Of a DNA stretch of 64,000 nucleotides, positions 1-8,319 are shown in pieces. Location: assembly GCA_046291555.1 (NCBI GenBank), contig JBKBRW010000011.1, forward strand, positions 575-64,574. The letters run 5' to 3'. Numbering within the stretch: position 1 is the stretch's first letter; each line of letters starts with the position of its first letter. Below the pieces are notes generated by a model. It was not told the DNA's origin. It made no database searches and saw only the letters and a list, made by a program, of their open reading frames with translations. Origin of the DNA: Thiobacillus sp. (GTDB taxonomy: Bacteria > Pseudomonadota > Gammaproteobacteria > Burkholderiales > Thiobacillaceae). The position numbers were made by a program, and so were the translations under genes.

Positions 1-2289
1 ACAGGTGATCGGTGAAGCCGGCCGTGTCGGTGTAGTGCTCCTCGATGCGCAGGTCGGATTCGTGATACAGCAGCCCATCCAGGACGTGGGTGGCGTCGCG
101 CACCGTGGCGTTGATGACCTTGGTGTGAAATGGCGCGTACTGGTCGGAGATGTGGGTGTAGAACTGCACGCCCGGCTCCTGACCGTACTTCAGGTTCACC
201 TGGCCGGCAGCTTGGCCACGACCGCCGGCCTTGAAGTTCTGGCCGTCCGATGACGACGTGGTGCCGTCGCCCCAGTAGGCGGCGAAGGGTTGGCGGAACT
301 GAGCATTGACCAGCTCGGCCAGACTCGCCGAATAGGTTTCGTCACGGATGTGCCACGCCTGCAACCAAGTCAGCTTGGCGTAGGTCACACCGGGGCAGGA
401 CTCGGCCATCTTGGAGAGGCCCAGGTTGATGGCGTCGGCCAGGATGGTCGTCAGCAGCAGATGCTGGTCTTCGGCTGCCGCGCCACTCTTGAGGTGCTTG
501 AAGTGGCGGCTGAAGCCGGTCCAGCCATCGACTTCCAAAAGCAGTTCGGTGATCTTCAGATGCGGAAGCAGGCTGTACGCCTGCTGCATCAGCGCCTCGG
601 CCTCGTCGGGCACGGCGTTGTCCAGCGGAGAAATCTTGATTCGCCCGGTGCTGGTGATGGCCGCATCGGGCAGTTCGTTGGCGGCGGCCAGTCGCTCGAC
701 TGTCGCCAGTTGCTCTTGCAGCACCGCAAGCCTGGCTTCCAGAAAGCGGTCACAGTCGGTATCGACAGCTAAGCCCAATTCACGCTGATCACGCTGCGCC
801 GCGAATCGCGGCGGCGGCAACAGGTAGTCCTCGAAGTCCTTGAACTGGCGCGATCCCTGTACCCAGATGTCGCCGGAGCGCAGTGAGTTCTTCAGTTCCG
901 ACAAAACGCACAGCTCATAGAAGCGCCGATCCAGCCCATCCTCCGTGCGAACCAGGTTTTCCCAGCGCTTGCGCACAAACGACGTGGGCGCGTCGTCCGG
1001 CACCTTGCGCGCCTGACGGTCGTTCATCCTTTTGAGCACTTCGACGCCGGCCAGCAGTTCGCGCGCTGCCGGCGCGGCCTTCATGGTCAGCGCTTCCAGC
1101 AGGGTCGGCGTGTATCGCCGGAGCTGGGTGAAGCCGTCGCCGACCAGGGACAGAAAATCGAAGTCTTCCGGCCGGGCCAGCGTCTCCGCTTCAGTGATAC
1201 TTTCGCTGAATACATCCCAGGGTATGATCGCCTCGATGGCGGCGAACGGATCGCCACCCAACTGCTTGGCTTCCAACAAGGCGCGGCCGATGCGCGAGTA
1301 CAGCCGCACCTTGTCGTTGATCGCCTTGCCGGACTGCTGGAAGCGGTCGGCATGGTTGCGCTTGGCCTTACTGAACAGCGAACCCATGAAACGGTCGTGC
1401 AAGTCGATGATTTCGTCGATCAGCGTGGCGCTGGTGTCGAGGATCACCGCGACCAAAGTTGCATAGCGACGGTTTGGCTCCAGGTCGCGCAGATGCTGGG
1501 CTGTCATCTGTCCGCCTTCGCGGGCGAGCTTCAGCAGACGGTTCTGGTGAATGGCGTGTTCCAGGCTGCCCGGCAGCGCTAGGTGTCGCGAACGGTTTTC
1601 AGGCGTTCCAGGTGGGCCAGCACATGCTTGGGCTTCGGCGGGCCGGGCGGCTGGCGTAGCCAGATCAGCCCGCTGCTCTTGATGCCCTCGCGGATCGCCA
1701 GCAGGCCGTCAAGCGCGCGGCGGTGGAAATCACCGAGCGGCGCGGTGAGCACCTCGTAGACCTGGCGCGTGCCGCGTGTCAGCGCCTCGCTGCACACGCG
1801 CTCGATGACATCGACGGTCGGAAGAATGATGCGTTGCTGCCGCAGCAACTCGACCAGCGCTTCGGCCAGCACGATACCCCGGTCGGTCTGCTGGGCCAGA
1901 TCAGCGAGCTGGTGGACGAAGTGCCGATAGTCCGCGACAGCGAACGGCGTCAGCTTCAGCCACGCCTGCAACTCCAACAGGTGCTCGCGCCTCGTTTCCG
2001 GCCGCTGCGCGTACTGCGGCCAGATGTCCGGCTCGATGCGCAACTGGCGACCGACGATGTTCAGCAGGGAGGCGGGAGGCTCCGCGTCAGTCGGCAGGGC
2101 AAAGCCTGGATAGCGCAGGTAGCACAACTGCACCGCGAAGCCGAGCCGGTTGTGGCTGCCGCGCCGCTGACGGATCACCGACAGGTCGGGTTCGGCGAAG
2201 GTGTAATGCTGGATGAGTTCGTCGTCGGTGGCCGGGAAGGCGAGCAGGCCGGTACGCTCGGCGGGCGTCAGCAGATTGCGGCGCGGCAT
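1..2289 (-). pseudogene. tnpA: Tn3-family transposase, frameshifted, 3' end outside window
   Basis: Starts MPRRNLLTPAER at 2289. Frame 1 stops at 1579-1581; translation resumes in another frame ([26 protein letters not shown]...[10 protein letters not shown]...[13 protein letters not shown]) and is open to base 1. Removing 2 nt at 1583-1584 restores the frame. Confidence 0.93.
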
Positions 2290-2291
2290 GG

Positions 2292-2852
2292 TTAGTCTTC
2301 CGCTTTCAGGTACTGGTAGAGGGTTTCGCGGCTGATGCCAAACTCGCGAGCGAGCTGCGCCTTCTTCTCGCCGGCAGCAGCACGACGGCGCAGCTCGGCC
2401 ACCCGCTCCGGCGCGAGCGCCTTCTTGCGGCCCCGGTAGGCTCCACGCTGCTTGGCGAGCGCGATACCCTCGCGTTGCCGCTCGCGGATCAAGGCACGCT
2501 CGAACTCGGCGAACGCACCCATCACCGAGAGCATCAGGTTCGCCATCGGCGAGTCCTCGCCGGTGAAGGTCAGGTGCTCCTTGACGAACTCGATGCGCAC
2601 GCCGCACTGGGTGAGGCCCTGCACCAGGCGGCGCAGATCGTCCAGGTTGCGCGCCAGGCGGTCCATGCTGTGTACCACCACCGTGTCGCCTTCCCGCACG
2701 AACCCGAGCAGCGCGTCGAGCTGCGGGCGCTGCGTGTCTTTGCCCGACGCCTTGTCGGTGAACACCTTGTCCACCTGGACGAGTTCCAATTGCCGCTCCG
2801 GGTTCTGGTCGAAGCTGCTGACGCGGACGTAACCGATGCGATGCCCTTGCAA
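2292..2852 (-). CDS. tnpR: Tn21/Tn501-type resolvase (serine recombinase), 186 aa, TTG start
   Basis: QGHRIGYVRVSSFDQNPERQL...HSMDRLARN...C-terminal HTH GISRETLYQYL. Confidence 0.96.
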   Translation of the reverse strand: MQGHRIGYVRVSSFDQNPERQLELVQVDKVFTDKASGKDTQRPQLDALLGFVREGDTVVVHSMDRLARNLDDLRRLVQGLTQCGVRIEFVKEHLTFTGEDSPMANLMLSVMGAFAEFERALIRERQREGIALAKQRGAYRGRKKALAPERVAELRRRAAAGEKKAQLAREFGISRETLYQYLKAED

Positions 2853-2872
2853 AATGGCTCCCGAACTGAAAG

Positions 2873-2973
2873 TGTCAGGCAGAAATCTATGGCCCTTGGC
2901 GGCATCCGTCAAGAAATAGGGAATGCGGCTCTATTCTGACGCTCCCAAGTGGCTTACCCTGACACCCGGTTAG
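2873..2973 (-). promoter_or_regulatory. res site of the Tn21-like element, truncated within subsite I
   Basis: Directly upstream of tnpR; CGTCA(2907)...TGACG(2941) inverted subsite and further TGTCA/TGACA half-sites; cut off at 2974 by a Tn402-type IR. Confidence 0.75.
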
Positions 2974-3021
2974 TGTCATTTCCAGAAGGCGACTGCACAC
3001 TTTTTCAGCAGTGCTCTGCAC
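2974..3021 (+). repeat. Tn5053/Tn402-family 25-bp terminal IR plus second TniA-binding repeat
   Basis: TGTCATTTCCAGAAGGCGACTGCAC (2974-2998) differs at 2 positions from the Tn402-type IR as recalled (TGTCATTTTCAGAAGACGACTGCAC); a second ...CTGCAC repeat ends 23 bp further in (3021). Confidence 0.85.
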
Positions 3022-3473
3022 TACAAAAACAGTCGGCCCTATCTCGGCATGATTGATCAGTCGATGCCGAAGGGTTACAATGTCGAACTTCATTAACTGC
3101 GGAGTTCCCAAGTGGGCACTTGTTCGAGTGACAGTAGTCAGCCGGTTCCAATGACCGGCACCCCCTCGGCAAGATAACGCGCAGGCTCCCCTGCCGCTAT
3201 CTCGCCGAAGGCGAGAGGCGGCAATCGCGTCGCGGCATCCGCTGCACGCAATTACTTCCTCCAGACAACTGAGTGGCCGATCGTCTTGTGGCGTTCGGCA
3301 GCGAACCGGGCGCATTGCTGACATCGGGCAGTGCGCTGCCCTCCTTGTGACCTTCGACGTCCGCCAGGTTGGCACACGTGTGTGCCCGCCTTGGCGGCGG
3401 ATGAATAGGTAGCCGATGCGGCAACATGGGGCCTGATTCGATCAGGCGTGTCATCAACCAACCGGAGCCCGTC

Positions 3474-3569
3474 ATGGACCCAGACCTGAGTCGATCTTGC
3501 TTTAAACCGTTTTTGAATTCTTCCACTGCATTACCGGCTACCCGTAGCCGGGGGACGCCACCGGCTTAA
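3474..3569 (+). CDS. Candidate Pro-containing leader peptide, 31 aa (MDPDLSRSCFKPFLNSSTALPATRSRGTPPA)
   Basis: GGAG 6 nt before ATG; ends in a Pro-Pro motif just before an SD-sequestering hairpin; speculative. Confidence 0.3.
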   Translation: MDPDLSRSCFKPFLNSSTALPATRSRGTPPA

Positions 3570-3615
3570 TCGGCCCGGCATGCCCTCGGCTGCGCCAAGC
3601 CGAAAGGAGCATGCC
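3534..3615 (+). promoter_or_regulatory. Structured 5' leader of the barrel-mgtE-mgtC operon
   Basis: Hairpin CCGGCTA-CCCG-TAGCCGG (3534-3551); long stem GGCATGC-CCT-CGGCT / AGCCG-AA-AGG-A-GCATGCC (3577-3615) pairs over the AAGGAG SD. Confidence 0.5.
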
Positions 3616-4392
3616 ATGTCGCACTTCGTTGTTCTCGCTTTTCGTCGTGACGCGACGTCACGGCGCCTCTCTTCGTTCTCGCGCGCTTCAGGTTGGCAGC
3701 AATGTGTGCGCCTGCTCACGGCGCTTGCCTTGTCCGCAACCATGGTCCCGGCCCATGCCGGCAGGCCGCTGGCGACCGATGATGCCGCTATCGTCGATGC
3801 CGGTGCCTGCCAGCTCGAAACCTGGAACGAACGCACCCGTGACGCCCGTAGCCTCTGGCTGAACCTCGGCTGCAATCCGTTCGGGAAGACCGAGTTTTCC
3901 CTCGGCGGTGCTCAAGTGCGTCCCAGCGGCGAATCGTCATTCACGGCGCGGCAATGGCAGGTCAAGCAGATGCTGCGCGCCCATGACGACGAGCAGACCG
4001 GCTTTGCGCTGGCAGTGGGCGGTCAGCGCACGCGCCACACGGACGCACGCGACGTCTTCGTTCACGGCATCGCCACCCTGCCGCTGGCGGGGAAGGCGCG
4101 TGTGCTGCATGTGAACCTGGGCGCGCTGCGCGCGCACGAGGACGGCCGTCACCGCGACCGCGCCACCTGGGGCCTGGCGTATGACGCCGAGGTGGCCGCG
4201 GCGACGCGTGCCTCGCTGGAGACTTATGGCGTCTCGGGCGAGCGCGCCCGCTGGCAGTTCGGCCTGCGTCACGAGTGGCTGCCCGGCCACGTGCAGATCG
4301 ACGCCAGCATCGGCAGCCGCTTGGGCCGCTGGAACGACGACCGCCTGCTGACCGTGGGTCTGGTGTTCGTCAGCCCGCCGTTCCTGCGCTGA
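3616..4392 (+). CDS. Exported putative outer-membrane beta-barrel transporter
   Basis: AAGGAG SD then ATG 3616; signal peptide ending AHA; GRPLATDDA..CQLETW start; alternating aromatic/hydrophobic strands. Confidence 0.7.
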   Translation: MSHFVVLAFRRDATSRRLSSFSRASGWQQCVRLLTALALSATMVPAHAGRPLATDDAAIVDAGACQLETWNERTRDARSLWLNLGCNPFGKTEFSLGGAQVRPSGESSFTARQWQVKQMLRAHDDEQTGFALAVGGQRTRHTDARDVFVHGIATLPLAGKARVLHVNLGALRAHEDGRHRDRATWGLAYDAEVAAATRASLETYGVSGERARWQFGLRHEWLPGHVQIDASIGSRLGRWNDDRLLTVGLVFVSPPFLR

Positions 4393-4428
4393 GCGCAGCC
4401 AACCCGTTGACACGAAAGGAGAACGATC

Positions 4429-5814
4429 ATGAACCGCGAAGAACTGCTGTTCAGCGTGCGCACCCTGGCCCTGTCGCTCGACGGCAAGGCGTTCGCCCAA
4501 CTGGTGCGCCACACCCCTGCAACCGATCTGGTAGAAGCGCTCGACGTGCTCGACACCCGGCAGACCGTGGCCCTGCTGATGACGCTGCCACCGCAAGAGC
4601 GGGCCGAACTGTTCGCGCACTTTCCCGAGTCGCGCCAGGACATCCTGCTGCGCGCACTGCCGCGCGAGGCGGTGGCGGGTTTGTTCGAACGGATGCCCGC
4701 GGACGACCGTGCCGACCTGTTCAACCGCCTGAGCGAGGAGGCCAAGGCCCGCCTGCTGCCGGCGCTGGCGCAGGTCGAGCGCGACGACATCCTCAAGCTC
4801 GCCGCCTATGCGGAGGGCTCGGTCGGCTCGGTGACGACCTCGGACTATGCGCACGTCACGGCCGACATGACGGTGGCCCAGGCGCTGGCGCACATCCGCG
4901 CCACGGCGCCGGACAAGGAGACCATCTACGCCATCTATGTGCTGGATGAGCAGCATCGCCTGCGCGGCACGGTGTCGCTGCGTGAACTGGTGCTGGCCGA
5001 CGAGCAGGCGCGCATCGGCGACATCATGCGACCGGAGCCCGTGTTCGCGCGCGCGCAGTGGCCGCGGGCGCAGGCGGCGGAGATCATCCGCCGCTATGAC
5101 CTGCTGGCGCTGCCGGTGGTCAACGGCGGCGACAGGATGATCGGCATCGTCACCGTCGATGACGCCATGGACATCGAGAAGGAACAGGACGCGGCACAAC
5201 TGGCGCGCTTCGGCGGCACGGCCATGATGGGGGGACCGGATCTGGACGTGCTCGCCTCGCCGTTTGCGCGCATGTACCGCGTGCGCGTGTTCTGGCTGGC
5301 CGTGCTCACCTTCTTCGGCATCCTCACCAGCACCTTCGTCGCGGCGCAGGAGGAAATCCTGTCGCAGGTCATCGTGCTGGCAGCCTTCATCGCGCCCATC
5401 ATCGACATGGGCGGCAACACCGGCAGCCAGTCGGCGACCCTGGTCATCCGTGCCATGGCGCTGGGCGAATTGAAGCTGCGCTGGCGTGACGTGTGGCTCA
5501 TCGTCCAGCGCGAGCTGCCGGTGGCGGCGGCCTTGGGCCTGACCATCGCCGTGCTGGAAACCGTACTCGCCTACTTCGCCAAGGGCGTGGGCTGGGACGT
5601 GCTGATGGTGGTGGGGCTGTCCATGCTGGCCTGCACCGCGTTGGGCGGCATCATTGGTGCGCTGCTGCCGTTCGCGGCGCGGCGCATCGGCACCGACCCG
5701 GCCACGCTGTCCGCACCGATGATCACCTCCATCATGGACCTGTTGGGAGTGTTCATCTACTTCGGCATCGCCTATGCGTTCCTGGGCGATCTGCTGACCC
5801 AGGCGTCGGGTTGA
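4429..5814 (+). CDS. mgtE: Magnesium transporter MgtE
   Basis: MgtE_N, tandem CBS domains (IGIVTVDD), TM domain DMGGNTGSQSATL and APMITSIMDLLG. Confidence 0.96.
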   Translation: MNREELLFSVRTLALSLDGKAFAQLVRHTPATDLVEALDVLDTRQTVALLMTLPPQERAELFAHFPESRQDILLRALPREAVAGLFERMPADDRADLFNRLSEEAKARLLPALAQVERDDILKLAAYAEGSVGSVTTSDYAHVTADMTVAQALAHIRATAPDKETIYAIYVLDEQHRLRGTVSLRELVLADEQARIGDIMRPEPVFARAQWPRAQAAEIIRRYDLLALPVVNGGDRMIGIVTVDDAMDIEKEQDAAQLARFGGTAMMGGPDLDVLASPFARMYRVRVFWLAVLTFFGILTSTFVAAQEEILSQVIVLAAFIAPIIDMGGNTGSQSATLVIRAMALGELKLRWRDVWLIVQRELPVAAALGLTIAVLETVLAYFAKGVGWDVLMVVGLSMLACTALGGIIGALLPFAARRIGTDPATLSAPMITSIMDLLGVFIYFGIAYAFLGDLLTQASG

Positions 5815-5904
5815 AGCCCAACCCACGACCTGTCCGGGCCTGAGCGGATCCGGGCAGGTCATTTCGACGTCACGGGGTTCGGCTAAGCTGAGCCCCATCT
5901 TTTT
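5811..5904 (+). promoter_or_regulatory. Candidate attenuator upstream of mgtC: 10-codon Pro-rich mini-ORF plus alternative hairpins and terminator
   Basis: TTG ORF 5811-5843 (MKPNPRPVRA) overlaps the mgtE stop; stem 5827-5837/5850-5860; terminator-like stem 5874-5883/5887-5896 followed by ATCTTTTT. Confidence 0.5.
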
Positions 5905-5917
5905 GGGATCACCGTCC

Positions 5918-6646
5918 ATGTATATCGCACAGCATCTGGATTTCGCCGCCTCGCTCAATACGCTGGGCAGTTTGCTGCTCGCCTTCGTGCTCGGCGCGGT
6001 CATTGGCCTGGAGCGGCAATACCGCCAACGCACGGCGGGCTTGCGCACCAACGTACTGGTGGCCGTTGGCGCGGCCTTGTTCGTCGACATCGCCATGCGC
6101 TTTCATGCCCTCTACGGCGGCACGCCCAGCCCGCTGCATGTGGTGGCCTACGTGGTCTCCGGCGTGGGTTTTCTAGGCGCGGGCGTCATCATGCGCGAAG
6201 AGGGCAACATCCGCGGCATCAACACGGCGGCCACCTTGTGGGGTTCGGCTGCGGTCGGCGTGGCGGCAGGCACGGGAATGCTGGTGGAAGCGATCCTCGG
6301 CACGCTGTTCGTGCTCTCGGCCAATACCTTGCTGCGCCCCGTGGTCAATGCGATCAACCGCCAGCCGATCGATGTGGAATCGGTCGAGGTCACCAACATC
6401 GTCTATGTCATTGCCAGCCGTGAGCGGCAGAAGGAAGTGATGGCTACTGTCGAAGCCGAACTGGAGCGCAATCGCTACCCGGTGCGAGACTTGGAGGTGC
6501 ATGCCTTTGGCGATGAGGATGTCGAGATCGAGGCCACGCTGACCGTGACCTCGGTGGACGGCGACGAGCTGGATGCGCTGGTGGCGAGAATCGCCAAGCA
6601 ACCCGGCGTGCGTCAGGCATTCTGGAGTCCGAGCACCTCGGAATAA
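5918..6646 (+). CDS. mgtC: MgtC/SapB family membrane protein with C-terminal ACT-like domain
   Basis: IGLERQYRQRTAGLRTNVLVAVG; VVSGVGFLGAGVI; RGINTAATLW. Confidence 0.93.
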   Translation: MYIAQHLDFAASLNTLGSLLLAFVLGAVIGLERQYRQRTAGLRTNVLVAVGAALFVDIAMRFHALYGGTPSPLHVVAYVVSGVGFLGAGVIMREEGNIRGINTAATLWGSAAVGVAAGTGMLVEAILGTLFVLSANTLLRPVVNAINRQPIDVESVEVTNIVYVIASRERQKEVMATVEAELERNRYPVRDLEVHAFGDEDVEIEATLTVTSVDGDELDALVARIAKQPGVRQAFWSPSTSE

Positions 6647-6660
6647 CGAATGACTTGGCT

Positions 6661-7278
6661 CTATCCAGAACGACCAAGCAGTCTTTCGCCATCAGGTCTC
6701 AATTTACCTTTTGGAGAGAGATGTCGGTACAGCGTCTGCCTGGTGATGCCAAGTTCCTGGCATAGATCACCGACCTTGGTTTCCGGCTGCCCCATGGCGG
6801 CCATCGCCAGCCGCAGCTTGGCCGCCGTCATCTTGAAGGGTCGTCCGCCTTTGCGGCCCCGTGCCCGCGCCGAGGCCAGCCCTGCCACAGTGCGCTCGGC
6901 GATCAGCTCGCGCTCGAACTCGGCTAGTGCGGCGAAGATGCCAAAAACCAGTTTGCCGGCGGCGGTCGTGGTGTCGATGGCCGCGCCGTGACCGGTCAGC
7001 ACCTTCAGGCCAACGCCGCGCCCAGTCAGGTCGTGCACGGTGTTGATGAGATGCCGCAGGTCGCGCCCAAGCCGGTCGAGCTTCCACACGACCAGCGTAT
7101 CTCCCGGCCGCAGCGCCTTCAGAGAGCTCGCCAGGCCGGGGCGATCCTCGCGCTTGCCCGATGCCTGATCCTCGTACAGATGCGCCGGATCGACGCCGGC
7201 AGCGATCAGCGCGTCACGCTGTAAATCCGTAGCCTGGGAGCCATCCGCCTTCGACACCCGCATGTAGCCAATCAGCAT
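6661..7278 (-). CDS. tniR: Tn5053/Tn402-type resolvase TniR
   Basis: MLIGYMRVSKADGSQ...WKLDRLGRDLRHLINTVHDL...GGRPFKMTAAKLRLAM...GITRQTLYRH. Confidence 0.9.
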   Translation of the reverse strand: MLIGYMRVSKADGSQATDLQRDALIAAGVDPAHLYEDQASGKREDRPGLASSLKALRPGDTLVVWKLDRLGRDLRHLINTVHDLTGRGVGLKVLTGHGAAIDTTTAAGKLVFGIFAALAEFERELIAERTVAGLASARARGRKGGRPFKMTAAKLRLAMAAMGQPETKVGDLCQELGITRQTLYRHLSPKGKLRPDGERLLGRSG

Positions 7279-7287
7279 GCCTCACCC

Positions 7288-7420
7288 GTCACATATACGT
7301 TCGATTATGTGACAGTGTGCACCAGAACATGCTGGCCGTCAAAATTTGTCACTTAACCCGTTATTCTGTCTAAGACCTACAAAGGGTGTTTATGGTTATT
7401 AAAGTGACTTAACAAGACAG
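7288..7420 (-). promoter_or_regulatory. res region upstream of tniR
   Basis: AT-rich; palindrome GTCACATA(7288-7295)...TATGTGAC(7306-7313) and further GTCAC/GTGAC half-sites. Confidence 0.65.
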
Positions 7421-7467
7421 CATCGTGCGAGGGACTCTGAAGCAATCCCATTCCCTCGCGGCGACTC

Positions 7468-7511
7468 GTGCATAGGACTACTGAACAAGTCGTGTCAGCA
7501 GTCCTATGCAC
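7468..7511. repeat. 17-bp inverted repeat (1 mismatch) with 10-bp spacer
   Basis: GTGCATAGGACTACTGA (7468-7484) / TCAGCAGTCCTATGCAC (7495-7511). Confidence 0.85.
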
Positions 7512-7544
7512 TCGGTACCTGGTGAAGTGAAGACAGATGAGCGG

Positions 7545-7582
7545 CTTAACGTACGATTTTTTCCGTTTCGTGAGCTGACCCC
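7545..7582 (-). repeat. 38-bp Tn3-family terminal inverted repeat
   Basis: Minus strand GGGGTCAGCTCACGAAACGGAAAAAATCGTACGTTAAG; GGGG...TAAG architecture of Tn21/Tn501 IRs. Confidence 0.93.
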
Positions 7583-8319
7583 GGGTACGCCGCGTTCCTC
7601 GCCGATGCCGTTGGGCACCGCACCGTCCTCCTTCAGGCGAAAGCGCGTCGTGCGCCACGCTGCGCCGAGCCCGACGTTCCAGCCGCCGTCGAGCCGGTAC
7701 TCGAGTTCGAGGCCGGCCGGCCCCGTCGGTCCAGCGGGTAGCGGGTTCATGAGACGCCAGCGATCGCCCAGCCGCCAGTCGACGAGCAGAAACGGGAACA
7801 CACTCGTCTCCTCGATGCGGTCGAACACACCCATGCCAAAGCCGAGCCGGTTGCCTTGTTCGAAGCGCTTGGTCGACGATACGATGCCGCCCCAGCTAAA
7901 GGCGTCACCCGCGTCGGCGCCATTCTCGCGGAACCAGTCCAGCGAGGGCGTGACGCCGACGCTCCAGCCGTCGTTCAGCGCAAACGAAAGGGGAACCGCC
8001 ACGCCGTAGCGCTGCACAACGTTCCAGGGCGCAACGTTGCCGAAACGGGCCGGATTCGAGAACGAATAGTCCGTGTAATCATGGCTGAGGGTCACGCCGG
8101 CCCGGTTGCCGCGGCCGAGGTCGCGCGAAACGCCGGCGCGCGTCATGACGCCCTGCGCGCTGTAGTCGCCGCCGCCGTCGAGATCGCCCTGCCCCTGATA
8201 GACCGGCGTGACCGAGAGGAATGGGCGCCAATCCGTCTCCTGCGCGTGCGCCGCGCCAGCTGTGCGAGTGCGAGGAGAAGCCCCGTCGAACGCGTGCGTG
8301 GCGATAGTTTGATGTTCAT
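7583..8319 (-). pseudogene. Outer-membrane beta-barrel gene truncated by the transposon and frameshifted in its signal peptide
   Basis: GGAG+ATG at 8319 gives MNIKLSPRTRSTGLLLALA; a 1-nt shift near 8265 gives TAGAAHA/QETDW; barrel-like strands follow; frame runs into the IR at 7582. Confidence 0.75.

What the first reader, a model, noticed from the sequence alone, without database searches (positions are those of the whole stretch)
2873..7582. Res-hunter transposon nested in a Tn21-like res site, carrying Mg2+-uptake cargo instead of mer or an integron
Seen: a Tn402/Tn5053-type IR begins exactly inside res subsite I (preceded by GTTAG, 2969-2973). Cargo is barrel-mgtE-mgtC, then tniR and its res. 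tniABQ, the second IR and the rest of resI are missing before the Tn3 IR at 7545. Known: Tn5053-family elements target res sites and typically carry mer operons or class 1 integrons. Inference: a Tn5053-family member with a cargo I do not recognise, now captive and moved only by the outer Tn3 element.
Basis: partly seen in the sequence, partly recalled or inferred. Interest (0 to 1): 0.65.

Follow-up and report, generated by a model that had tools for sequence, protein, structure and literature searches.

The report
Decayed transposon nest carrying magnesium-uptake operon
A crippled Tn402/Tn5053-type "res-hunter" transposon carrying an intact, self-regulated magnesium-uptake operon sits inside the res site of a small Tn21-like transposon that is itself broken; the architecture is a known kind, and the most interesting by-product is an apparently uncatalogued leader RNA in front of the operon.

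Summary
A Tn402-family IRi starts at 2974, directly after GTTAG, and splits the tnpR-distal res subsite of a cryptic Tn21-subgroup transposon. The cargo is a 12-strand porin-like barrel (PF27733), mgtE and mgtC, followed by tniR and its res, and the Tn3-type IR lies at 7545-7582.

The interpretation needs three corrections.
- tniABQ were not lost here. The element belongs to a recurrent tniABQ-less lineage with the same res-to-IRt junction as pYKBR041, pRSB223 and pMRCP1333. Locally only about 44 bp of the IRt end and about 100 bp of the carrier were deleted.
- Magnesium cargo in this family is already on record as "Tn402 with mgtAC" on pSM0227-07. The window holds an mgtE variant with a chimeric leader.
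- The outer transposon cannot move it. Its tnpA is frameshifted and cut by an IS5-family element, and no left IR exists in the assembly.

The whole insert is flanked by a 5-bp repeat, GGGTA, in a DUF6268 outer-membrane gene. Its left end is a truncated traG-like gene, which suggests one-ended transposition.

The operon's leader is a conserved structured RNA family with no Rfam match.

Verdict: new member of a known kind, moderate interest.

The parts
1..2289 (-). tnpA of the outer Tn3-family (Tn21-subgroup) carrier; pseudogene
   Evidence: It has DUF4158 and DDE_Tnp_Tn3 domains. It is 91.6% nt identical to the transposon on P. aeruginosa plasmid NZ_CP116716. A 2-bp insertion near 1580-1585 shifts the frame. 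Homology stops at residue 928 of 989, left of the window, where a multi-copy IS5-family element begins at C2:1-77.
2292..2855 (-). tnpR, serine resolvase of the carrier
   Evidence: Resolvase and HTH_7 domains; colinear with the tnpR of L002 and L003.
2856..2973 (.). carrier res region, cut in its tnpR-distal subsite after GTTAG (2969-2973)
   Evidence: Alignment with the intact res of L002 and L003 ends at 2973/2974.
2974..3040 (+). IRi end of the Tn402/Tn5053-family element (25-bp IR at 2974-2998 plus a subterminal repeat)
   Evidence: 21-23/25 identity to known IRi/IRt; homology with pSM0227-07 starts exactly here.
3053..3081 (+). sigma-70-like promoter of the cargo operon (TTGATC-17-TACAAT)
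   Evidence: It is the only such site in 2974-3650, against 0.2 expected. The two hexamers are conserved in relatives.
3093..3330 (+). structured leader RNA, mgtA-type 5' part
   Evidence: 76-98% identical to pSM0227-07. Covariance-model hit at 3093-3233, 163 bits. In 37 sequences, 86.5% of cells pair and 27 of 37 pairs show compensatory change. Two mutually exclusive helices are both about 98% paired. No Rfam match.
3474..3569 (+). 31-codon upstream ORF (MDPD...), in the mgtE-type 3' part of the leader
   Evidence: The Shine-Dalgarno, ATG and first 9 codons are conserved in native barrel-mgtE-mgtC operons L021 and L015. This region is 58-82% identical to them and does not align with pSM0227-07.
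3616..4392 (+). outer-membrane 12-strand beta-barrel, PF27733 (UCP029691)
   Evidence: 92 homologues, all carrying PF27733. AlphaFold2 model pLDDT 87 with 12 strands after a signal helix. Best fold matches are the KdgM, NanC and OmpG porins.
4429..5814 (+). mgtE, Mg2+ channel
   Evidence: TIGR00400 at 344 bits against a cut-off of 233. MgtE_N, CBS and MgtE domains. 76-81% identical to MgtE of native operons, and the same 461 aa.
5918..6646 (+). mgtC
   Evidence: MgtC and MgtC_SapB_C domains. 86-88% identical to native mgtE-type operons and 72% to pSM0227-07.
6661..7278 (-). tniR (tniC), serine resolvase of the inner element
   Evidence: 95% aa identity to the pSM0227-07 TniR. Hundreds of plasmid hits are annotated TniR/TniC.
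7279..7390 (.). tni res, including the palindrome GTCACATATACGTTCGATTATGTGAC
   Evidence: Nearly invariant in pSM0227-07 and pYKBR041.
7391..7520 (.). tniQ-3' remnant joined to the inner repeats of the IRt end; the last ~44 bp with the outer 25-bp IRt are missing
   Evidence: 89.6% identical across the junction to 7 tniABQ-less elements that continue into IRt. Bases 7432-7518 match the IRt-proximal segment after IS6100 in pB3.
7521..7582 (-). right end of the carrier: 24 bp plus the 38-bp IR (7545-7582)
   Evidence: 90% identical over 62 bp to the right end of the complete 3.86-kb relative in E. coli plasmids.
7583..7587 (.). GGGTA, right copy of the 5-bp target duplication
   Evidence: The other copy lies at C78:89431-89435. 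Joining the two flanks rebuilds an uninterrupted DUF6268 ORF colinear with a 302-aa homologue.
7583..8319 (-). 5' part (246 codons) of the disrupted chromosomal DUF6268 outer-membrane barrel gene
   Evidence: Homologues are 302 aa and up to 91% identical; the best named one is a Thiobacillus sp. MAG.

Best explanation
Shown:
- A small cryptic Tn21-subgroup transposon (tnpA-tnpR-res, then ~130 bp, then IR) was hit in the tnpR-distal subsite of its res by a non-autonomous Tn402/Tn5053-family element.
- That element had the layout IRi, promoter, leader RNA, barrel, mgtE, mgtC, tniR, res, short IRt end. It has no tniABQ.
- The element belongs to the same lineage as 'Tn402 with mgtAC' of IncP-1 plasmid pSM0227-07.
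- Its cargo from the middle of the leader to mgtC matches native chromosomal barrel-mgtE-mgtC operons, not the mgtA version.

Inferred:
- It must have been moved by Tni proteins supplied in trans.
- The cargo was exchanged by homologous recombination between the shared leader and mgtC.
- A ~150-bp deletion then removed the outer IRt repeat, the second GTTAG copy, the rest of res subsite I and ~100 bp of the carrier. This fixed the inner element and destroyed the carrier's resolution site.

Chromosomal integration:
- The block entered a DUF6268 outer-membrane gene together with DNA from a conjugative element. The insert is flanked by the 5-bp repeat GGGTA.
- It starts at the carrier's right IR but ends in a 5'-truncated traG-like gene with no IR.
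- I infer one-ended transposition from that single IR, at about 50% confidence.
- Later the carrier's tnpA acquired a frameshift and an IS5-family insertion.

Function (inferred from homology): the three cargo genes keep their native lengths and their own promoter and leader. The locus therefore now works as a fixed, probably Mg2+-regulated magnesium-acquisition module. The barrel would act as an outer-membrane channel, MgtE as the inner-membrane Mg2+ channel, and MgtC as a low-Mg2+ adaptation factor.
For: - Boundaries and split res.
- Complete minimal relative of the carrier, with TSD AAATA.
- Relative element with mgtA-mgtC, tniQBA and TSD TTATC. It is listed as 'Tn402 with mgtAC' in PMC9499019.
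- tniABQ-less junction shared with pYKBR041, pRSB223 and pMRCP1333; pYKBR041 has TSD CCTTT.
- Native barrel-mgtE-mgtC operons with the same gene lengths of 258, 461 and 242 aa.
- Chimeric leader and protein identities.
- No tni genes in the genome.
- tnpA defects.
- GGGTA duplication and rebuilt ORF.
- Left end is traG' and not an IR.
- The leader RNA family precedes mgtA in at least 20 of 29 loci.
- The leader is absent from the 9 other sampled genomes of the host family.
- Literature on defective res hunters moved in trans and nested in Tn501-type carriers.
- Literature on one-ended transposition in the Tn3 family.
Against: - The assembly has 78 contigs.
- The DNA between contigs C78 and C2 is not assembled, so the insert's full content is unknown.
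- The second GTTAG copy is deleted, so the res insertion cannot be proven to be a direct transposition event.
- The right-hand crossover of the proposed cargo swap cannot be placed. Identity to both lineages is similar over the last 250 bp of mgtC.
- That one-ended transposition leaves a 5-bp duplication is from my memory of the 1980s papers, not from a text I could read.
- Function of the cargo is inferred from homology only.
Confidence: 0.75

Rival explanations
1. One reading: a complete Tn5053-family transposon with tniABQ inserted here, and one large local deletion then removed tniQBA, IRt and the rest of res I.
For: The region between the tni res and the Tn3 IR is short, and the second TSD copy is missing.
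Against: Window 7385-7520 is 89.6% identical, across the res-to-IRt-proximal junction, to seven elements on unrelated plasmids. Those elements continue for ~44 bp into IRt, and the pYKBR041 copy (L004) has a clear 5-bp duplication. The tniQBA loss therefore predates this insertion.
Confidence: 0.07
2. The carrier entered the chromosome by ordinary two-ended transposition, as a larger Tn3-family element or a cointegrate. A later deletion then removed the left IR and adjacent DNA up to traG.
For: The 5-bp duplication GGGTA is the normal Tn3-family signature. The destroyed res would leave cointegrates unresolved. IS elements that could drive deletions are present.
Against: The deletion would have to end exactly at the outer edge of the left IR while keeping the 5-bp repeat intact. 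The first 45 nt of the insert show no IR similarity: 9/38 in register, and a local score reached by 1376 of 2000 shuffles.
Confidence: 0.3
3. The nest is an assembly or binning chimera: mobile-element contigs wrongly joined to this genome.
For: The region lies at the end of a contig in a 78-contig assembly. Contig ends share 77-base repeats. No reads could be laid.
Against: The junction with chromosomal DNA is internal to an 87-kb contig. The two halves of the target gene lie on two contigs and rebuild a perfect ORF with a 5-bp duplication, which an artefact would not produce. An independent Logan contig is 100% identical over mgtE'-mgtC-tniR'.
Confidence: 0.04
4. The mgtE-type cargo was captured independently by a Tn402-like backbone, not exchanged with the mgtA-type cargo by recombination.
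For: The barrel is only 39% identical to that of pSM0227-07. MgtC is closer to native mgtE-type operons, at 86-88% against 72%.
Against: Both elements share the IRi end, the promoter and about 200 nt of leader at 76-98% identity. In both, mgtC ends 11-14 bp from the tniR stop. Two independent captures would not give the same two borders.
Confidence: 0.15

Closest known systems
'Tn402 with mgtAC' on IncP-1beta plasmid pSM0227-07 (LC623903; Hayakawa et al. 2022, PMC9499019 Table 3)
   Same: Both have a Tn402-type IRi (22/25), the same promoter and 5' leader (76-98%), a PF27733 barrel as first gene, mgtC abutting tniR, and TniR at 95% aa identity. Both inserted in a resolvase-associated res region with IRi next to the resolvase gene.
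   Different: pSM0227-07 carries mgtA (a P-type ATPase) where the window has mgtE. Its barrel is only 39% identical. It keeps tniQ-tniB-tniA, IRt and a TTATC duplication, and it sits in the IncP par res.
tniABQ-less Tn402 derivatives: Tn402-delta(tniABQ) of P. monteilii HB157 (bioRxiv 2020.12.23.424275) and the elements in pYKBR041, pRSB223 and pMRCP1333
   Same: They have tniR plus res and then a short IRt end with no tniQBA. The three plasmid elements share the identical junction sequence with window 7385-7520.
   Different: Those elements carry integron cassettes or unnamed ORFs and keep IRt and, in pYKBR041, a clear duplication. The HB157 element has a different deletion, involving IS6100. 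The window copy has lost its last ~44 bp.
Tn6606 family: defective Tn5053-family res hunters nested in Tn501/Tn6603 carriers (Petrovski and Stanisich 2020, PMC7765201)
   Same: They are tni-defective elements found in or next to the res of Tn21/Tn501-group carriers. IRo/IRi lies next to tnpR, and they are presumed to be moved by tni functions in trans.
   Different: The remnants differ (tniA', tniR', merR, merB') and there is no Mg cargo. Most keep both IRs and 5-bp repeats.
Tn21::In2 and Tn1696::In4 type nesting of Tn402-derived class 1 integrons in Tn21-subgroup transposons
   Same: A Tn402-family element inside or beside res of a Tn21-subgroup carrier, captive through loss of tni functions (established knowledge). 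The closest relative of this carrier, L002, also carries a class 1 integron beside res.
   Different: The cargo here is a metal-uptake operon, not an integron. The carrier here has no mer or other passenger genes and is itself defective.
Salmonella/E. coli mgtA and mgtCBR leaders (Rfam Mg_sensor RF01056; mgtL, mgtP)
   Same: A long 5' leader before Mg2+ transport genes, with alternative helices and a short proline-containing upstream ORF.
   Different: There is no Rfam match at E<=1. The sequence is unrelated by eye, and the family is confined to a subset of Burkholderiales sensu GTDB. Mg2+ sensing is untested.

Membership tests
Tn5053/Tn402 family | 25-bp terminal inverted repeat at the IRi end, at a true element boundary | tested here: met
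   21-23/25 identity to family IRs. Homology with pSM0227-07 begins at the first base, and the flanks differ.
Tn5053/Tn402 family | matching 25-bp IRt at the other end | tested here: not met
   Only the inner IRt-proximal repeats remain (7432-7520). The outer repeat present in L004, L005 and L006 is deleted. No second IR exists in the genome.
Tn5053/Tn402 family | tniA-tniB-tniQ transposition module | tested here: not met
   tblastn with the pSM0227-07 TniA, TniB and TniQ finds nothing in the assembly. This is as in described defective derivatives.
Tn5053/Tn402 family | tniR/tniC serine resolvase with its res immediately upstream | tested here: met
   95% aa identity to TniR. The res block is conserved.
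Tn5053/Tn402 family | 5-bp target duplication | tested here: inconclusive
   GTTAG precedes IRi, but the far side is deleted. Relatives show TTATC (L001) and CCTTT (L004).
Tn5053/Tn402 family | insertion in or near a res site, with IRi next to the resolvase gene | tested here: met
   The insertion splits the carrier res 118 bp upstream of tnpR. This is the orientation described in PMC7765201.
Tn3 family, Tn21 subgroup (outer carrier) | 38-bp terminal IRs at both ends | tested here: not met
   The right IR is present (7545-7582). No left IR exists in any contig, and the left end of the insert is not an IR.
Tn3 family, Tn21 subgroup (outer carrier) | intact DDE transposase TnpA | tested here: not met
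   The domains are present, but there is a 2-bp frameshift and truncation by an IS at residue 928 of 989. The frameshift is not verified by reads.
Tn3 family, Tn21 subgroup (outer carrier) | tnpR with a three-subsite res | tested here: inconclusive
   tnpR is intact. The res is present up to the break, and the distal subsite is half deleted. Subsite naming is from memory of Tn21 (one search found no exact dyad).
Tn3 family, Tn21 subgroup (outer carrier) | 5-bp target duplication | tested here: met
   GGGTA lies on both sides, and the rebuilt empty site gives an intact ORF.
One-ended transposition product (Tn21/Tn1721 type) | insert begins exactly at a single IR, ends at an arbitrary donor position without an IR, and is flanked by a target duplication | tested here: met
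   The phenomenon is cited in PMC4133298. That the duplication is expected is from memory, and a transposase source is not testable.
MgtE Mg2+ channel (TIGR00400) | full-length match above the curated cut-off, with MgtE_N, CBS pair and membrane domain | tested here: met
   343.8 bits against a cut-off of 232.75; Pfam domains.
MgtC/SapB | MgtC membrane domain plus C-terminal ACT-like domain | tested here: met
   PF02308 and PF21770 are above cut-off. The match is below the NCBIfam equivalog cut-off, at 160.7 against 255.
Known Mg2+ riboswitches (M-box RF00380, Mg_sensor RF01056) | covariance-model match | tested here: not met
   No match at E<=1 in 2800-7700.

The most novel reading that the evidence does not exclude
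The ~240-nt leader carried by this transposon (3093-3330, plus the MDPD upstream ORF at 3474-3569) represents an undescribed Mg2+-responsive riboregulator class of Burkholderiales. It would switch between two covariation-supported, mutually exclusive helices to control barrel-mgtA/mgtE-mgtC operons. Tn402-family elements would then spread it together with the transporters as a self-regulating module.
Probability: 0.35. Interest if true: 0.7.

Novelty: new member of a known kind. Interest (0 to 1): 0.4.

Why it matters
- Res-hunter transposons are studied almost only as carriers of mercury resistance and class 1 integrons. This locus, with pSM0227-07 and the Ramlibacter and Aquabacterium copies, shows a small environmental lineage that moves a complete magnesium-acquisition operon with its own regulation. 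The cargo can also be swapped (mgtA for mgtE) while the transposon ends are kept.
- It gives a clean natural example of how such a nest decays, with every mobility function lost and the cargo intact. It may also be a natural product of one-ended Tn3-family transposition.
- The practical lead is the leader RNA. It is a conserved structured element found in 20 of 167 sampled genera of the order. It lies almost always upstream of Mg2+ transporters and has no Rfam family.

Tried and rejected
- Rfam scan of 2800-7700 at E<=1 gave only a spurious miRNA hit.
- Exact look-up of the TniR protein in public contigs found none. The MgtC look-up gave only one 1.4-kb identical Logan contig.
- Two metagenome scans, one for the exact IRi and one for the uORF motif, gave no hits. 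No complete mgtE-type copy with both ends was found.
- A distant search of plasmids with IRi plus leader found only pSM0227-07.
- An inverted-repeat search for a dyad in the intact res of L002 found nothing at seed 6. The 'subsite I' label is therefore not tool-supported.
- I first read C2:1-76 as a possible alternative tnpA end or a foreign Tn3 IR. I rejected this because it is the end of a multi-copy IS5-family element.
- I considered that the shared GGGTA might be microhomology only. I rejected this because the rebuilt ORF is exact.
- I considered a short ORF inside the leader hairpin (ATGACCGGC...). I rejected it because the ATG is absent in pSM0227-07.
- The L009 row in alignment A6 was not mgtC, owing to my wrong coordinates, and was ignored.
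- Avila et al. 1988 could not be read.


Full report
**1. Observation**

Reading the window and listing ORFs gives the following layout.

| Feature | Coordinates | Strand |
|---|---|---|
| tnpA | 2289 to <1 | - |
| tnpR | 2292-2855 | - |
| Non-coding stretch ending GTTAG | up to 2969-2973 | |
| TGTCATTTCCAGAAGGCGACTGCAC | from 2974 | |
| First cargo ORF (barrel) | 3616-4392 | + |
| Second cargo ORF (mgtE) | 4429-5814 | + |
| Third cargo ORF (mgtC) | 5918-6646 | + |
| Resolvase gene (tniR) | 6661-7278 | - |
| Tn3-type IR | 7545-7582 | |

- Pfam and NCBIfam confirm a Tn3-family transposase (DUF4158 and DDE_Tnp_Tn3), two serine resolvases, MgtE (TIGR00400, 344 bits, cut-off 233) and MgtC.
- The 25-mer at 2974 is 21-23/25 identical to IRi/IRt of Tn402-family elements.
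- Homology with the Tn402-like element of plasmid pSM0227-07 begins at exactly this base, and the left flanks are unrelated. So 2974 is a true element boundary.

**2. The carrier**

- Window 1-2973 is 91.6% identical to a transposon on P. aeruginosa plasmid NZ_CP116716 (L002). It is 84% identical to one on E. coli plasmids (L003).
- L003 is a complete minimal element of 3.86 kb: IR, tnpA, tnpR, res, ~130 bp, IR. It is flanked by AAATA.
- In both relatives the sequence runs on past GTTAG as GGTATGCCTCAACCTGAC or GGTTTACTCAATCTGAC. The window's res is therefore split 118 bp upstream of tnpR, in the subsite farthest from tnpR.
- That this is subsite I is what Tn21-subgroup organisation predicts. 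It rests on my memory, because the repeat tool found no exact dyad.
- The last 62 bp before 7582 match the right end of L003 at 90%. The carrier therefore resumes at about 7521.

**3. The inner element**

- Plasmid searches found mgtC next to tniR on pSM0227-07. Its layout is IRi, leader, a 242-aa barrel, mgtA, mgtC, tniR, tniQ, tniB, tniA, IRt. It lies in the IncP par res and is flanked by TTATC.
- Hayakawa et al. 2022 list it as 'Tn402 with mgtAC'.
- Identities to the window are TniR 95%, MgtC 72% and barrel 39%.
- The same mgtAC element occurs in a Ramlibacter MAG, where IRi lies inside the tnpR of a related Tn3-family element. It also occurs at a contig end in Aquabacterium commune DSM 11901.

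**4. tniABQ were lost before this insertion**

- Window 7279-7518 aligns at 82-90% with pYKBR041, pRSB223, pMRCP1333 and four other plasmids.
- In the plasmids examined (L004, L005, L006), tniR-res is followed by the same ~130 bp, then ~20 bp, then IRt, and then the plasmid backbone. pYKBR041 has a CCTTT duplication.
- Bases 7432-7518 also match the IRt-proximal remnant behind IS6100 in pB3.
- The window therefore holds a member of a recurrent tniABQ-less lineage. Comparable defective elements are described as Tn402-delta(tniABQ) and Tn6606.
- Locally, only the last ~44 bp with IRt, the second target copy, the rest of the split res subsite and ~100 bp of the carrier are gone.
- The genome holds no tniA, tniB or tniQ and no other Tn402 IR.

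**5. The cargo**

- The first gene belongs to PF27733 (UCP029691). AlphaFold2 gives a confident 12-strand barrel behind a signal helix (pLDDT 87). Its best structural matches are the small monomeric porins KdgM, NanC and OmpG.
- Barrel(258)-mgtE(461)-mgtC(242) operons with identical gene lengths occur in unrelated chromosomal contexts. Barrel-mgtA-mgtC operons occur in Curvibacter, a Rhodocyclaceae MAG and Hylemonella.
- Against native mgtE-type operons the window's proteins are 76-81% (MgtE), 86-88% (MgtC) and 60-71% (barrel) identical.
- The leader is a mosaic.
  - Bases 3063-3260 are 76-98% identical to pSM0227-07 and only 44-58% identical to mgtE-type leaders.
  - Bases 3425-3500 are 58-82% identical to mgtE-type leaders and do not align with pSM0227-07.
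- In both elements mgtC stops 11-14 bp from the tniR stop.
- I infer that an mgtA-type element exchanged its cargo with a chromosomal mgtE-type operon by homologous recombination. The right crossover cannot be placed.

**6. The leader RNA**

- A sigma-70-like promoter (3053-3081) precedes ~240 nt that are far more conserved than the coding sequence.
- Two mutually exclusive helices share the strand CCUGCCGCUAUCUCGCC. Each is about 98% paired in nine sequences, and one has five compensatory pairs.
- A covariance model built from nine sequences gave the following hits.

| Sampled set | Genomes with a hit |
|---|---|
| Order | 26 of 401 genomes (20 of 167 genera) |
| Class | 2 of 400 genomes (one of them the window's own) |
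| Other genomes of the host's family | 0 of 9 |

- In the 37-sequence alignment 86.5% of cells pair and 27 of 37 pairs show changes on both sides. No shuffle out of 500 reached these values, and slid controls gave 30-50% pairing. The alignment is fitted to the model, so these figures lean towards the structure.
- The next gene is mgtA, with or without a barrel, in at least 20 of 29 loci.
- There is no Rfam match, and I found no paper on it.
- The upstream ORF at 3474-3569 (MDPD...) is conserved in native mgtE-type leaders. This agrees with an earlier first-reader note.

**7. The carrier is dead, and how the block entered the chromosome**

- tnpA has a 2-bp insertion relative to L002. Its homology stops at residue 928 of 989, where a multi-copy IS5-family element begins at C2:1-77. 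That 77-base sequence is repeated at the ends of four other contigs. No left IR or tnpA tail exists in the assembly.
- To the right of the IR lies a DUF6268 outer-membrane gene lacking its last 56 codons. Homologues are 302 aa, and the best named one is from Thiobacillus. Those 56 codons are on contig C78.
- Joining C78 up to 89435 (ending GGGTA) to window 7588 onwards rebuilds an uninterrupted ORF colinear with the homologue. The insert is therefore flanked by a 5-bp repeat.
- Its left end is a 5'-truncated TraG_N gene with no IR similarity.
- The pattern is a precise start at one IR, an arbitrary end in donor DNA and a target duplication. This is the pattern reported for one-ended transposition of Tn21-type elements (cited). 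The duplication detail is from my memory, because the original paper could not be read.
- The alternative is two-ended insertion followed by a deletion ending exactly at the left IR.

**8. Verdict**

- The thing is a new member (mgtE cargo, tniABQ-less, truncated) of a known kind. Its closest relative is already noted in the literature.
- It is now a fixed, probably Mg2+-regulated uptake module, not a mobile element.
- The uncatalogued leader RNA family and the possible natural one-ended transposition product are the parts worth following up.

**Limits**

- No read validation was possible.
- The gap between C78 and C2 is unassembled.
- No functional data exist.

Noticed in passing
window 3093-3330 (covariance-model hit 3093-3233): A conserved structured leader RNA with two mutually exclusive, covariation-supported helices. 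It occurs in 26 of 401 genomes of the order, mostly directly upstream of mgtA or barrel-mgtA, and has no Rfam family.
   Followed up: partly
window 3474-3569: A 31-codon upstream ORF starting MDPD. Its Shine-Dalgarno and first codons are conserved in native barrel-mgtE-mgtC operons (L021, L015). It is reminiscent of mgtL-type leader peptides.
   Followed up: partly
genome contig C2:1-77 (left of the window), also C33:154527-155262: A multi-copy IS5-family insertion sequence interrupts the carrier's tnpA at residue 928. Its 77-base end is shared by the ends of contigs C3, C7 and C12.
   Followed up: partly
genome contig C78:89436-91422: A 5'-truncated traG-like (TraG_N) conjugation gene forms the left end of the inserted block, directly after the GGGTA repeat. 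The contig then ends in another multi-copy repeat.
   Followed up: partly
window ~8255-8270: By eye, the disrupted DUF6268 gene also has a 1-nt deletion in its signal-peptide region (MNIKLSPRTRSTGLLLALA, then out of frame). This suggests further decay or a sequencing error.
   Followed up: no
L004 4276-6893 (pYKBR041); L005, L006: Complete tniABQ-less mini-Tn402 elements (IRi, cargo, tniR, res, IRt), the pYKBR041 copy with a CCTTT duplication, recur on unrelated plasmids. They seem to be a distinct non-autonomous lineage.
   Followed up: partly
L010 2150-2200 (Ramlibacter MAG): The mgtAC-type Tn402 element has its IRi inside the coding sequence of a Tn3-family tnpR related to the window's. This is a second association of this lineage with this kind of carrier.
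   Followed up: partly
L002 6951-7340 (P. aeruginosa plasmid NZ_CP116716): The closest relative of the carrier has a class 1 integron IRi about 360 bp beyond its intact res, and an IS5075 next to its left IR.
   Followed up: no
L035 (genome G666, contig 3): A leader-RNA hit followed by mgtA lies within 1.5 kb of a resolvase 49% identical to TniR. This may be another mobile Mg-uptake module.
   Followed up: no
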